64,000 bases of DNA from Eledone cirrhosa. Its lineage: Eukaryota. Positions 4,725 through 28,293 of this stretch are shown here, in pieces (positions within the stretch are counted from its first letter, which is position 1; the number at the start of each line of letters is the position of its first letter). The stretch spans positions 253,146,001 through 253,210,000 of the forward strand of contig OZ024741.1 of the NCBI GenBank assembly GCA_964016885.1. The letters run 5' to 3'. The position numbers and the translations under genes were made by a program. The notes beneath the pieces were generated by a model. The model had not been told where the DNA came from. It did no database searches and saw only the letters and a list, made by a program, of their open reading frames with translations.

Positions 4725-4915
4725 ATATTTAATATAGAAATGACTTCTACAGGACTAGAACTGTTTCATTCGAAGGAAATCATCAGGAGAGCCCTGATGA
4801 TTTGCTTCGAATGAAACAGTTCTAGTCCTGTAGAAGCCATTTCTACATTAAATATTTACACTCTGCTATGTATTGAGTACCTTACTTAGTGTGGTTACCC
4901 CACATTGAACCTGAA
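4725..4915 (+). mobile_element. Palindromic hammerhead-bearing short element (family A)
   Basis: Inverted arms 4725-4787 and 4793-4855; CTGATGA at 4794-4800, GAAA at 4813-4816, stem III CAG/CTG, GUA site; flanked by (TA)n/(CA)n. Confidence 0.7.
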
Positions 4916-6384
4916 ACACACACACACACACACACACACACATATATATATATAATTCTAGTTGCATTTTATAAGACATTTTCTCAATATATAAATGAAT
5001 CATTACAGAGTTTTCAATATTCTAACAATAGAGCAATGTAAGTATATATGCAATTATACATCTGAATATACTGAGGATCAACACAAACTATATTCATAGA
5101 TATTACATTAAATATTTATTGAAATTGCAATGAATATAGATGGTGTTGACTCAGGTTAAGTATAACTACACACATCTTTATAAAGTTCTTATATTATAAT
5201 ATTGAGTACTTGATGACAATTCATTTATATATCAAATTGCTACATCCTTTTATGTATTACAGAATATGCTGCTCCTAATTACGTGAAGCTGCTCTATATT
5301 TCATAATTGTAGAATGTAAAATAGAAGAGTGATATATCTATCAGCACAACTTACACATGAGTATACACAGTAACTAATATAATTACCAACCTTTTTACCA
5401 GCAAGGCAAACACTTGAAAATGTTAATAATTTAGTTATTACTTCAAGTGAATTTGTAAGTACAAAAAATGGCTGAGAGGACATTTTACATGTGCCAGGGA
5501 CATGGCAACCTCTCTAGTGCTGGTGATATCCACTTTTATGAATGTGCCTCAGAATATTCTGAAAATTGTTGATGATGGGAAGGTCATCCAACCATATAAA
5601 ACATGCCAAACAAAGGGTCAGATGGTTTCTTCAGTTGTGCCATAGATATGACCACGTCCCTAGTATTGGTGATCTACATGATAAACTACACACAGAACAC
5701 TGTGTAAAGTGGTTGCTAATAGGAAGGACATCCAACTATAAAAACTTGCCAAATGAAGGATGACGAGGACTCTTCCACAGTTTTAAAGATATGACAATTT
5801 CCCTAATACTTGTAACAAGATAATCTGCACTTAGTAAAGTGTGGGATCATATGTAAACAAGATGCATGTCTCAGACTCAGCAATCAATAGAGTATGGGAA
5901 CATAAGTAAGTGAGATGCAGGTACTCAGAGGTGAGTAGTGACTAGTCTGTGACGACACATCCAACCCTTCCTTAGCAGGGAAATGATGATGATGATGATG
6001 AGGAGGAGGAGGAGGAGGAGGAGGAGGAGGAAGAGTAGGATGGAATTTTGCTTGTTTATATTTTCAGTCACATCATCATCATCATCATCATCGTTTAACG
6101 TCCGTGTTCCACGCTTGCATGGGTTTGGACGGGAGTTTTCCCACTTGAGGCAAGAGTGATTGTCTTGCTCGCATAGGACTGTCTGGCGGGTTTTCTACAG
6201 CTGGATGCACATATATATGTATATATATATATATTTAGTTTCAGATTATCCCGTTAAGAGTGAAAGCAGCGATTCTTTGTTTAAACTTTAATCTGTTCTT
6301 ATAATAAATATTATTTTTATCTAAAGACATTTTTTTCCAATTCCATCCCGCCCGTCCCCTCAATCTATTTTATTTCTCATTCTT

Positions 6385-6420
6385 TCTTCTGATGAAGGAC
6401 TAGCGCCCGAAACATTAAGA
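6385..6420 (+). ncRNA. Minimal hammerhead-ribozyme-like motif in a Penelope-type fragment (about 6235-6505)
   Basis: TTCTT CTGATGA AGGACTAGCGCCC GAAA CATTA AGA; element bounded by (TA)n tracts. Confidence 0.5.
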
Positions 6421-7968
6421 CCCTCTTCCTGCTATATCAAGCGTTAACCTAATATATACCTTCCATATACTGTACCGATTGTGTTGTTATTTCTGTTTAC
6501 CTTTTACATATATATATATACATATATATATATATACACAGAGGTATCCACAGTAAGTTGTGGGGTCTGTTCTGTATGAAGAACTCAATGTAATCCATAT
6601 GTTGAAAATGTTGTAGGTTAAGATAAATCTCAGAAAACAATAAAAGGTAAACAGAGTTATGATATAAGTTAAAACAATGAAATAAAAAATCAAGTCATTA
6701 GAGATATACTTCACTGCTTTACGATCGTTTCTAGATGGTGATAATACAATGTATCTATACTCAGTTATTGATCTATGTAAGTTTACAAACTATCAGATAG
6801 AGAGAATATTTACTTACATGCATATCACCAGCTGTTTTCAAAAGCAATATATATATATATATATATATATATATATATATATATATATATATATATATAT
6901 ATATATATAAAACATTATAAGCAGCAGCATCATTTAACATACATTTTTTCCATGTTGGCATGGGTTAGACAAGTTGTCCTGTTCTAAGGGAAGTCAGATC
7001 TGTTGACCATGTTTGCTGATACAGAACTCTTTCTGGCTTGGTTTCTATGGCTGGATACTCTTCCTAACACCAACCATATCTAATTCGAGAACTGGGTCCT
7101 TTTTATCATGGCACAAAAATGGCCAATTGACAGTTTAAACTGGGCACTTTTTGTCATGTACCCAACACAACCACTTTACAGGGGGGACTGGTTTCTTTTT
7201 GTCATGTAACCAGCACAACCACTTTAGAGGGTGAACTGGGTGCTCTTTGTGAAGTCACCAACAAGACCACTTTACAGGGTGGACTGGGTGGTTATTTCTC
7301 ATGTCACCAGCCTGAGTACCTTACATGGTAAACTAGTTACTTTTGTTTGTCACCAGCATGACTACTTTACAGGGTTGACTGAGAGATTTTAGCCATTTCA
7401 GCAGCATTGTTGGGAAGTGTGTCCAGGTTCCCATGCTTATATACATAAGTATTGTGAGATATGTACTAAAAGACTGATAATTTTCAAAATGCCAGTGCAA
7501 CACAATAGTACTGTTTCCAAAGCCAGAATTTCTTTTCAAACTCTTCCACTGATTTGGTTATAAGAACCAGGTCATCTGTATACAGAAGTTCCCATATACA
7601 ACCTGTCTTAAACACCTCTGTTATAGCTTGGAAAACTATAATAAATAGGGGTAGGGTGCTGACTGAGCCCAGCATACATTTTCTCATCTCATCTCAAGTA
7701 ACTCAACAATTTCTTTAAATCTTCCTTTGAGAGTGGCAGCCATAAGATCTGTTACCTCACAATGTTGGTTTTATCATCTTTTGGTAGTGTCTCTCTGTAC
7801 CTGAAAGGGAATGTGAATGTGCAAGTGTTTGATGATGATTGAGGGGTTCTTGCACATGCCTAGGTTAGCCACCACATTACCATGCACAGCACTAACATAT
7901 ATATATACATACATATATATATATACATATACATATATATACATACATACATACATACATACATACAT

Positions 7969-8376
7969 GGTAGCTGCCAACTCGTTTTCGAGTATGGCCA
8001 CTACTTTATATCCATGTAGGAGAACCCCTACTGATGCGCTGAACGAGTGTGACTTTTTAGTCCAGCCAGCTACATGAAAACTCTGGTACAAACACTACAC
8101 TTGTGACAATTATTGACACATAGTGCTGGGCCCATGGTACCCTGTGACGACAAGAGCAGAGAGATCTCCAGATATAAAACAATGCCTGTGCCGTGAAGCT
8201 TTTATAGTGAGCAAAGGCACTGCACAAAGCCAGTCCCACTCTCTTAACCAAGATGATATTTACCAAAAAGAAGAACAAGTCAACATCATTGGATACCATC
8301 AGGGTTGCAGGTGTTATATCAGAGTTTTCCTTCTCCTAGAATTCTGCCTTGACAAAGGCTAAGGGGTCATCTCTCT
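7969..8376 (-). mobile_element. Second copy of the 1085-1690 element (3' part)
   Basis: Reverse-complement match; shared ORF MVSNDVDLFFFLVNIILVKRVGL. Confidence 0.7.
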
Positions 8377-8377
8377 C

Positions 8378-26225: not shown

Positions 26226-26554
26226 TATATATATATATGAGCACAAGCTGAAACACAGATACAGTATACACCACCTTCACCCTGTCCCCTTCCATACAGC
26301 TCCCATGAACACAGGCTAAGTGTGTTCATTGGTATAATCATAGCTTACTTGTCTGGCAAATGTGAGGTGTGGGTTCAACTCCCATGTGTACTGACAACCA
26401 TCTTTTTTTGTTCAATGGGTTTATACACCCCATTATTAGATTATATTATTTAGTCAAAATATAACAGCGAAGCTTCTATTTCTACTTACTTTATTTCAAA
26501 CTTTGCTCACCACATTCCAAACATACTTTCTTTCTTTATATAATATATATATAT

Positions 26555-26940
26555 ATGGCTTAGTGGTTAGAGCATTGGCCTTGCAATCGAAAGGTTGTGA
26601 GTTCAATTCTCAGACCAGCTGATGTGTTGTTTCCTTGAGCAAGACACTTTATTTCACATTTCGCTAGTTTACTCAGCTGTGGAAATGAGATGATAGGGAC
26701 TGGGGTCCATATCATTCCACTGTAGAGTGGTCGTGGAGGTGCCACGGCAAAAAAGCATCCAGCACTCACTGTAAAGTGGACGTGTAGGCGCCATGGAAAA
26801 AAAAGCCCTAGCACTCACTGTAAATGAGGTTGGTGTTAGGAAGGGCATCCAGCTGTAGAAATAAAGCCAGAATCAGTTCCTGTCCCACCCTTGCAAGCAG
26901 GGAATAGCGGACGTAAAATGAAATGATGAAATGATGATGA
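26555..26940 (+). mobile_element. Same SINE family as 62835-63175
   Basis: Near-identical head, body and tail. Confidence 0.85.
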
Positions 26941-27518
26941 TATACTCATTAAAAATAACAGAAGGCTGGACTGGAAACTTTCTCTAGAATTTCAATTTTT
27001 AATGAATATTTAATTGTTCTTGCAACACTCTCGGGATACCACATCTATGATGGATGATTTGCATAGCGTTGAGGGCTTTAATTTATTGCATCATCGTTTA
27101 TAATCTGGAATCACCAGTTCTCTCCATTTGTTAACAACCTAACATGAACGGTATATATATTTATATATATATATATATATATATACCCCACACCCTACCC
27201 CATCTCCCTCTCCCACTCTGTCCACTGTGTCGATGACACAACAGGCCACACTGTCAGGTGGCCCATGTAAGAGACAAGTTGAAAAGGCTCCCAGTACACA
27301 CTGTAAATGTGGTTGGTGTTAGGAAGGGCATCCAGCTGTAAAAAACCTGCCACAGACGCTTCCGTGCGAGCGACACATGGTCTCCCGACCATTCCCGCAT
27401 CAAACGGAACAAAACCGTCTAACCCATGCTACCATGGAAGATGGACGTTAAACGATGATGATGATGATGATATATATGTAATCATGAAGTGCAAGTCAAA
27501 AGGTTAAAATTTACTTTG

Positions 27519-27869
27519 TTTATTCATTGTCGATGATACATATATTTTGGTGATAACCGTTATGCACCAGCTATGACCTCATCAGACAGCTAAAATTTGA
27601 ACAGAAAAAACAGAAAAACATGAAGATGAAATAAAGCTTATTACTGTTGTTTTGATTAATTGATATGCTCTGAAGTGAAATTTGGTGTTGCTTTCTCAAG
27701 GCATATGATTTAGAATGAATAAACTTACAGCACCAGTAGAAGTGGCACCTTCCTAATGGTCAGATTTAGCTTCACCACTCCATCAACAAGTCTCTTGAAT
27801 TCCCTAATGGTGCCATTGTCTGAGATTTATATATATATAATTAGTTACAACAGTGGCATATGCAGGTAC
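27519..27869 (-). other. Candidate downstream exon(s) of the protocadherin, or relic exons
   Basis: Acceptor CTTAG|GTACC at 27870/27869; donor GCT|GTAAGT at 27729/27728; 139-nt intron; strong acceptor TTTTTCTGTTTTTTCTGTTCAAATTTTAG| at 27590/27589; then LSDEVIAGA* in phase 0 (27589-27560) and AATAAA at 27524-27519. The 141-nt first exon has in-frame stops in phase 0. Confidence 0.35.
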
Positions 27870-27940
27870 CTAAGTTGCATTGGGTTAAATAAAATGGTAG
27901 GGGTGTGTGTATATATATATATATATATATATATATATAA

Positions 27941-28293
27941 GTGGTTACACAACAGTTAGTTCACCATCCCGAGAACAATTGTTTCACCTTAGTGGATCCT
28001 CAGCTCGTAATGGACATGGTTATACAGAACAGGAAGGACAACCGTACGAACACGCATGTGCAGAAACCGGTCACTTCACACAGGCCATACTAAAATGCGT
28101 GCGAGAGATGTAAGGGAGATAACTGCGATAGTCCGAAAAGTTTTTAGTTGTCCATTACGAGCTGAGGATCCGCTAAGGTGAAACAATTGTTCTCGGTATG
28201 GTGAACTAACTGTTGTGTAACCACTTCTACCTAACTCGTCCCATGGACTGAGTGCTCTACCACTACGGATATTACCTTCCAGTGTTCTACCAC
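27941..28293 (+). mobile_element. Family B copy 2, with hammerhead cores on both strands (28158-28195 plus; about 27970-28007 minus)
   Basis: Matches 12871-13392 with a different inversion breakpoint; (TA)n flanks. Confidence 0.8.

What the first reader, a model, noticed from the sequence alone, without database searches (positions are those of the whole stretch)
4860..28253. Conserved 3' hairpin ACTC-N11-16-GAGT(RC) shared across otherwise unrelated hammerhead elements
Just past the right inverted arm, and about 40-65 nt from the 3' end, each family has the same closing stem with a different inner stem: A ACTC-TGCTATGTATT-GAGTAC (4860-4880); B ACTC-GTCCCAGGGACT-GAGTGC (13332-13353, also 28234-28255); C ACTC-TACTACCTCAAGTATT-GAGTAC (13928-13953); D ACTC-CAATTATTTGTT-GAGTGC (22852-22873). 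A degenerate version may lie at 22484-22505. A fixed position with variable but pairable inner stems suggests a cis RNA signal, such as an RT/endonuclease recognition or 3'-end processing element. I do not recognise it as a described motif.
Basis: seen in the sequence. Interest (0 to 1): 0.75.

Follow-up and report, generated by a model that had tools for sequence, protein, structure and literature searches.

The report
Twin hairpins set Penelope retrotransposon ends
This small hairpin is conserved, usually in two copies per element, across one clade of Penelope-like jumping genes, and inserted copies stop a few bases before one copy or the other, so it is likely the handle that tells the element's reverse transcriptase where to start copying.

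Summary
The hairpin is real: 9 window matches against 1.6 expected, and 72,244 genome matches against 1,690 for a reversed control. The families are not unrelated. They are 3' ends of Hydra-clade Penelope-like elements (PLEs); four RT cores compared are 46-53% identical. The motif is RCUC-[variable stem-loop]-UY-GAGY-RC(U). It follows the hammerhead in 36 of 48 metagenome Hydra-clade hammerhead groups (0.8 expected), and its first upper pair switches C-G/U-A on both sides together, 5 times on an RT tree. Tandem copies show a second hairpin before the ATG. Insertion ends map 2-8 nt 5' of one hairpin or the other (family C: 108 of 117). Tail length tracks hairpin spacing, and 66 of 74 fold-back insertions have one long and one short arm. 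Best reading (inferred, about 65%): each hairpin positions the RT to start on the UA-rich strand just 5' of it, which would explain the PLE 'tail'. Against: family A lacks a canonical second hairpin, G-U pairs show no strand bias, and there are no RNA data. Eight literature searches found no description. This scan reported the same motif before on other DNA of this genome (e1-8804881).

The parts
4702..4915 (+). Family A fold-back insertion in (TA)n/(CA)n: tail-less inverted arm (about 4702-4787, -) plus tailed arm
4794..4817 (+). Family A minimal hammerhead core
   Evidence: full type I anatomy parsed in sister copy L013
4860..4880 (+). Hairpin 1, family A (ACUC-UGC/GUA-UU-GAGU-AC)
   Evidence: training sequence; MFE shows only the outer stem
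13260..13282 (+). Family B hammerhead core
13332..13353 (+). Hairpin 1, family B (1-nt bulge); element ends at about 13393
13804..14003 (+). Family C fold-back: tail-less arm 13804-13862 (-) ends 5 nt before hairpin 1; tailed arm ends 3 nt before where hairpin 2 lies in tandem copies
13928..13953 (+). Hairpin 1, family C
16718..17570 (+). Broken Hydra-clade linker and GIY-YIG endonuclease (family H); its relatives carry the GCUC/GAGC form of the hairpin about 1.5 kb downstream
18983..19011 (-). Hairpin of a further family (G) with a 5-6 bp upper stem; tail ends at about 18915
19276..19301 (+). Hairpin 1, second family C fold-back (about 19168-19348)
22484..22505 (+). Decayed hairpin of family E
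   Evidence: does not fold
22852..22873 (+). Hairpin 1, family D fold-back (about 22583-22935)
23148..23173 (-). Hairpin 1, third family C copy
28234..28255 (+). Hairpin 1, second family B copy; its inverted tail-less arm has a hammerhead at 28003 (-) and ends at about 27940
29703..29780 (-). Decayed long-loop hairpin in a solo tail ending in (TA)n
   Evidence: (18.1 bits, E 0.04)

Best explanation
The hairpin is a conserved cis element of Hydra-clade Penelope-like retrotransposons, usually present twice (after the hammerhead and before the ATG), and insertion ends lie 2-8 nt 5' of one copy or the other; it is likely the RNA handle that the element's RT-endonuclease binds to start reverse transcription internally. 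Shown: the motif, its covariation, its two copies, the two end positions, the one-long-one-short arm pattern, and UA microhomology between the ends and the (TA)n target. Inferred: a read-through transcript of a tandem copy carries both hairpins. The protein, possibly as a dimer, binds the invariant CUC/GAG stem, the UY bulge and the RC flank. The GIY-YIG domain nicks (TA)n on both strands. Each 3'-OH anneals to the short UA stretch just 5' of a hairpin. The cDNA started at hairpin 2 copies hairpin 1 and gives the tailed arm; the cDNA started at hairpin 1 gives the tail-less inverted arm. The tail is therefore the interval between the hairpins.
For: Family C: 44 of 117 aligned copies end 3-14 nt before hairpin 1 (36 at exactly 5 nt) and 64 end 0-14 nt before hairpin 2 (56 at exactly 3 nt); 3 end elsewhere and 6 have no microsatellite at the end. 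D: 11 plus 3 of 21; I: 3 plus 1 of 4. B: 17 plus 19 of 44 at the two modal pairs of positions; H: 13 of 20 end 3 nt before hairpin 1. Metagenome elements: 5 of 6 mappable ends lie 2-5 nt before a hairpin. Tail length (67-96 nt) tracks hairpin spacing (68-99 nt), r=0.98 on 5 families, while hairpin 2 to ATG varies from 35 to 87 nt in 8 junctions. 66 of 74 head-to-head pairs are long plus short; 1 is long-long, 3 short-short, 4 unclassified. Hairpin after the hammerhead in 36 of 48 groups against 0.81 expected. First upper pair Watson-Crick in 27 of 28 hairpin-1 sequences against 14.0 permuted; 5 joint changes and no one-sided change on a 24-taxon RT tree. In PAc, RT starts internally at two sites flanking the tail and needs RNA to +172, 3' of the +111-118 start (PMC11167929).
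Against: No binding or RNA data exist for this clade. Family A has sharp long ends but no canonical hairpin 2: only GCAC/GUGC in L029 and a further decayed site in L102. Its point in the r=0.98 was chosen by me, and all five end values were hand-entered modes. No hairpin 2 was found for F and none was sought for H. G-U (6) and A-C (7) pairs are equally frequent, so wobble does not show that the sense RNA is the folded strand. Hairpin 2's first upper pair is nearly invariant C-G and does not covary significantly (P=0.11). The hairpin is weak: in the window's A copy only the outer stem forms, and 2 of 3 C copies prefer another local fold. Most own-genome loci were picked for holding hairpin 1, and the B set includes loci picked by their long end. 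Neptune-type elements in the same genome also have two ends without this motif, so it is not the universal cause of tails.
Confidence: 0.65

Rival explanations
1. The motif acts as DNA. The GIY-YIG endonuclease recognises it in the cDNA or integration intermediate and cuts a few bases 5' of it, resolving longer copies into tailed and tail-less ends.
For: PMC8557442 attributes the tail 'most likely' to EN-mediated resolution. PMC11167929 notes that the D. virilis EN needed the tail sequence to cleave plasmids. No strand bias in G-U versus A-C pairs.
Against: Covarying stems of variable length need a single strand. Ends share TA microhomology with the target, as priming predicts. PAc forms both tail boundaries by RT initiation in vitro.
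Confidence: 0.15
2. The hairpin is an RNA-processing signal. A nuclease, or the RNA itself, cuts just 5' of each copy, and RT starts at the resulting 3' ends.
For: The same geometry follows. An invariant stem plus bulge could be a nuclease site.
Against: No Rfam family matches. In PAc the dominant product does not depend on the RNA 3' end. The gap varies from 2 to 8 nt with the nearest UA, which fits primer annealing better than a measured cut.
Confidence: 0.1
3. It is a 5'-UTR element (translation control, autoregulation or promoter), and the ends only happen to fall at the AU-rich stretches beside it.
For: In tandem copies both hairpins lie in the 5' leader, hairpin 2 within 35-87 nt of the ATG. 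This role could coexist with the best explanation.
Against: Distance to the ATG varies widely, while distance to the ends is 2-8 nt for both copies in many families.
Confidence: 0.07
4. It is a neutral relic shared by descent within one clade.
For: The families are related (RT cores 46-53% identical), and the genome-wide count counts copies of a few families.
Against: GCTC/GAGCAC is nearly invariant among elements whose RT cores are 42-84% identical (median 52%), with repeated two-sided changes and two diverged copies per element.
Confidence: 0.03

Closest known systems
Hydra clade of C-terminal EN+ Penelope-like elements (Craig et al. 2021, PMC8557442)
   Same: RWK/RWR, DKT, CxCX5C linker, C-terminal GIY-YIG, hammerhead, (TA)n targets, inverted truncated copy and one-sided tail. 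By eye, 2 of the paper's 6 new consensus sequences carry the hairpin exactly (Hydra-2_Amil, Hydra-2_Ajap), 2 carry variants (Hydra-1_Crog, Hydra-1_Amil) and 2 stop before it; Hydra-1_Ajap begins with two copies before its ORF.
   Different: The passages and sections read describe no hairpin; 'hairpin' and 'stem-loop' have 0 occurrences in the main text. Tails here are 55-99 nt rather than 30-40 bp. Some families here have 3' UTRs of about 1.5 kb and variant hammerhead cores.
PAc (Poseidon of Anolis carolinensis; Frangieh et al. 2024, PMC11167929)
   Same: Two internal RT start sites bound the tail; AT-rich targets; RNA 3' of the start is required; the protein is predicted to be a dimer.
   Different: Different clade. 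Starts lie in an AC-rich stem-loop inside the ORF. The stretch shown in Fig. S1B has no GCUC...GAGYRC. No conserved or repeated recognition motif was defined.
3' stem-loop recognition signals of stringent LINEs and SINEs, and the R2 3' UTR (recalled; R2 as mentioned in PMC11167929)
   Same: A structured RNA element near the start of reverse transcription that the RT protein recognises.
   Different: Those lie 5' of the start and are copied. Here the positioning hairpin lies 3' of the start, is not copied by the cDNA it would position, and occurs twice.
Telomerase RNA template-flanking stems (recalled)
   Same: A stem next to the template would set where RT works. A Hydra-clade protein model (pLDDT 93) has TERT as its top PDB match (3du5, E 6e-9).
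   Different: TM-scores are only 0.31-0.37 and DRT RTs score similarly. No TRBD equivalence was shown. Telomerase boundary elements mark the stop, not the start.

Membership tests
Hydra-clade PLE | RWK-type N-terminal motif instead of GxKF/Y | tested here: met
   RWRT (C), RWRA (D, J), RWKA (I), RWR (A) in ORFs directly after the hairpins; family B ORF seen only at its start
Hydra-clade PLE | DKG modified to DKT | tested here: met
   SDKT in C (L251) and D (L264), ADKT in I (L267); GKT in the J copy
Hydra-clade PLE | CxCX5C linker, C-terminal GIY-YIG, no CCHH | tested here: met
   CNCRSNRTC (H), CNCKKRAEC (J); PF01541 weak hit below cut-off for the window EN; EN upstream of family C in L010
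Hydra-clade PLE | Hammerhead in the pLTR | tested here: met
   Type I anatomy for A, B, C (U3-A8 variant), D, H (U4C variant) and I; not detected by Rfam; cleavage not testable
Hydra-clade PLE | (TA)n insertion preference | tested here: met
Hydra-clade PLE | Generally short (<3 kb) | tested here: inconclusive
   Many metagenome contigs are about 2.5 kb; family H has a 3' UTR of about 1.5 kb
Hydra-clade PLE | Monophyly with reference Hydra elements in an RT tree | not tested
   Reference sequences were only readable in a paper supplement; the tree holds metagenome loci only
Neptune-type PLE | CX2-5CxxC linker and DKG | tested here: not met
   The hairpin-bearing families lack them. Neptune-type elements of this genome lack the motif at their ends: 0 of 30 PF01541 loci by strict pattern. 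Of 4 model hits, two belong to a neighbouring Hydra element, one lies upstream of the EN, and one (E 0.47) was not inspected.
Non-LTR retrozyme | Tandem non-coding repeats each with a type I hammerhead | tested here: not met
   Copies are dispersed fold-backs or solo ends continuous with coding PLEs
Known Rfam RNA family | Score above the gathering threshold | tested here: not met
   None of 137 window matches reaches its gathering score
RT recognition/initiation element | Protein binds it and it is required for correct initiation | not testable with these tools
   Only positional and covariation evidence

The most novel reading that the evidence does not exclude
Hydra-clade PLEs use a repeated RNA handle placed 3' of the template start. 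A dimeric telomerase-like RT binds two such hairpins on one RNA and primes two cDNAs from the two nicked target strands, which makes the fold-back with a one-sided tail. Neptune-type PLEs would do the same with their own small GUGU/ACAC-type hairpin, making 'hairpin just 3' of the start' a class-wide rule. Moving the hairpin would program where RT starts on any RNA.
Probability: 0.3. Interest if true: 0.8.

Novelty: new variant of a known kind. Interest (0 to 1): 0.62.

Why it matters
PMC11167929 showed that a PLE RT starts internally at two sites but did not define what sets them, and the one-sided tail has been a descriptive oddity of this class. A short, nearly invariant, twice-repeated hairpin a few bases 3' of both ends gives a directly mutable candidate for that signal, in the retroelement class closest to telomerase. 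It also gives a diagnostic for finding and delimiting Hydra-clade elements (over 70,000 tailed copies in this genome by one strict pattern). If the mechanism holds, it is a portable RT-start tag.

Tried and rejected
Rfam scan: no hammerhead and no family for the hairpin. Sequencing-run search: no RNA holder listed, so no reads were laid. The 37550 match was rejected as chance. Searches for a canonical hairpin 2 in families A and B gave no true junction (34 and 1 matches); B's hairpin 2 was then found with an insert of about 85 nt in its loop; A's remains non-canonical. The G-U versus A-C strand test was uninformative. The MAFFT alignment A2 misregisters the upper stem, so pairs were counted from anchors in scripts instead. 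Model R1 was trained on 51 hairpins, five of them window sites; it ranks the 8 window sites first, and 3 of those 8 were not training rows but are copies of trained families. A motif-like hairpin in Naiad_Mmer, seen by eye in the supplement, is not terminal and was not pursued; only 4 places per term of that search were shown. The fold search gave a generic RT/TERT likeness only. No complex prediction was run, since the partner would be RNA. Dropped rows: of the 47 hairpins, one is a spurious anchor (dropped) and one is mis-anchored (kept, dropped from the strand count). One of the 36 hits (L141 at 2850) is probably spurious. Of its 12 misses, 5 run into (TA)n first, 1 looks tail-less, 3 carry GAGCTC or GAGAAC variants and 3 look like non-terminal cores. 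One of 25 loci lacked an RT core and is not in the tree.
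Full report
OBSERVATION. All quoted hairpins are present at the given coordinates. The strict pattern has 9 window matches against 1.63 expected, and 0 of 100 shuffles reach 9. Eight lie in short elements inserted in (TA)n; one, in an integrase frame, is chance. The window comes from a 3.0-Gb animal genome; a cadherin-repeat ORF at 30326-32824 and dense microsatellites suggest a cephalopod-like host (inference). GAAAC-N30-75-ACTC-N10-18-GAGTRC has 72,244 matches genome-wide against 1,690 for the reversed pattern. 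That count is of copies of a limited number of families, not of independent origins.

WHAT THE ELEMENTS ARE. They are 5'-truncated 3' ends of Penelope-like elements, many with an inverted, tail-less second arm. Upstream of family C copies lie an RT fragment (L002) and a GIY-YIG fragment (L010). Tandem junctions show families A, B, C, D, I and J running into ORFs that begin like Hydra-clade proteins. These have RWK/RWR, DKT and CxCX5C, the features listed in section 11 of PMC8557442. RT cores of C, D, H and J are 46-53% identical. The families are therefore one clade, not unrelated. Rfam finds no hammerhead, but a parser finds type I anatomy in 8 of 11 copies tested, including a U3-A8 core variant in family C; that variant is described in PMC4209133.

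THE MOTIF. I aligned 65 of 120 listed homologous proteins and retrieved 78 metagenome loci. Anchoring only on the hammerhead, 36 of 48 groups with at least 110 nt of flank have the hairpin 25-100 nt downstream; shuffles give 0.81. Most misses are tail-less copies or one-base variants. In 47 distinct hairpins the form is GCUC-[stem-loop]-UY/UA-GAGC-ACU. With a 2-nt bulge the first upper pair is Watson-Crick in 43 of 47, against 0, 2 and 5 for bulges of 0, 1 and 3 nt, and 24.4 after permutation. Within hairpin 1 alone the counts are 27 of 28 (14 U-A, 13 C-G; permuted 14.0) and 23 of 28 for the second pair (permuted 8.9); hairpin 2's first pair is nearly invariant (P=0.11). On an RT tree of 24 loci the first pair changes 5 times, always on both sides. 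In this genome the outer pair of hairpin 1 is mostly A-U, and G-C in family H and in hairpin 2. Published Hydra consensus sequences from a coral and a sea cucumber carry it exactly, and that from a sea louse carries a variant (read by eye).

TWO COPIES, TWO ENDS. In tandem copies a second hairpin follows 55-99 nt later, before the ATG. In family C, 44 of 117 aligned copies end just before hairpin 1 (36 at 5 nt) and 64 just before hairpin 2 (56 at 3 nt). D, I, B and H behave alike, as do 5 of 6 mappable metagenome ends (2-5 nt). B's second hairpin keeps its base but has an insert of about 85 nt in the loop, and the ends still lie 2-5 nt before it. Tail length follows hairpin spacing (r=0.98, 5 families, hand-entered modes), whereas the distance from hairpin 2 to the ATG ranges from 35 to 87 nt. 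Of 74 head-to-head pairs, 66 are one long and one short arm; the loci were mostly chosen for a long arm, but the partner was short in 66 cases and long in 1. The ends share 1-3 nt of TA microhomology with the target.

MECHANISM (inferred). PMC11167929 showed for PAc that both target strands are cut and extended, that RT starts internally at two sites bounding the tail, and that RNA to +172 is needed although one start is at +111-118. The geometry here fits a bound handle just 3' of each start. I put this at 65%, DNA-level resolution by the endonuclease at 15%, RNA processing at 10%, a leader or translation role at 7% and neutral descent at 3%.

RESULTS AGAINST. Family A has sharp long ends without a canonical second hairpin. 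G-U and A-C pairs are equally common (6 and 7), so the folded strand is not identified. Several window hairpins are thermodynamically weak. Neptune-type PLEs of the same genome also have two ends but lack the motif (0 of 30). In four such families a small hairpin of other sequence lies 5-9 nt after the short end; it is weak, and one family rests on a single copy, so it is a lead only. The structure model is confident (pLDDT 93.4) but shows only general TERT/RT likeness.

LITERATURE. Eight full-text searches returned no paper that, by its listing, describes this motif; most subscription papers and Repbase are not covered. Seen: PMC11167929, parts 1-2 of 4 and the text of supplement 1 (supplements 2-3 not read; the GenBank file unreadable; Fig. 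S2 may bear on RNA structure). PMC8557442, passages, sections 10-11, and supplement parts 1, 2, 23, 52 and 53 of 59 plus one search. PMC4209133, part 1 of 4. bioRxiv 10.64898/2026.07.22.740005, parts 1-2 of 5. PMC3846280, passages only; it raises an antisense-template, self-priming model that I did not exclude. LINE/SINE stem-loops and telomerase boundary elements are recalled, not read. An earlier report of this scan (e1-8804881, same genome, other DNA) reached the same twin-hairpin reading; I had noted it before the look-up, and it is not independent evidence.

VERDICT. A real, structured, apparently undescribed cis element that marks both ends of Hydra-clade PLE insertions. It is a new variant of a known kind of signal, its function is untested, and it is directly testable. 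Interest 0.62.

Noticed in passing
L111:1483-1750 (-), L123:1286-1550 (-), L115, L113, L129, L130: Neptune-type PLE families also have a short and a long end. In four families a small hairpin (GUGU/ACAC, CUGUA/UACAG or UAUACAC/GUGUAUA) lies 5-9 nt after the short end; two families share ACUCGUGU-NNN-ACACCUC. A possible clade-specific counterpart.
   Followed up: partly
L251 (family C), L111 (Neptune-type), L094 (family H): Abundant families use variant hammerhead cores (U3-A8 covariant; U4C) that Rfam misses.
   Followed up: partly
PMC8557442 supplement, Naiad_Mmer 3' UTR: A motif-like hairpin with a 6-bp upper stem lies about 70 nt after the apparent SECIS and about 500 nt before the end; a single case, possibly chance.
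   Followed up: no
L254-L257: A tandem array with a unit of about 58 nt is built from a family C-like hairpin and its flanks; a 30-nt array of the family B tail lies at G000:C4:80.50 Mb.
   Followed up: no
L121 (from about 8000) and L122: Tandem repeats of about 500 nt, each with a canonical hammerhead core: retrozyme-like.
   Followed up: no
window 30326-32824 (-): 832-aa single-frame cadherin-repeat ORF, protocadherin-like (Pfam Cadherin x5).
   Followed up: partly
window 34201-38130 (+): LTR retrotransposon gag-pol region broken by stops.
   Followed up: no
window 2267-4300: 48-nt minisatellite of about 40 copies, open in one frame on each strand.
   Followed up: no
window 49915-54750 (-) and 55402-59860: Decayed L1/Tx1-like and RTE-like non-LTR elements, and a fragment resembling the N-terminus of Neptune-type PLE ORFs (58950-59858, -).
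   Followed up: no
L090:2400-3264: PLE families nest in one another's (TA)n flanks: a Hydra-clade 5' end with both hairpins directly follows a Neptune-type 3' end.
   Followed up: yes
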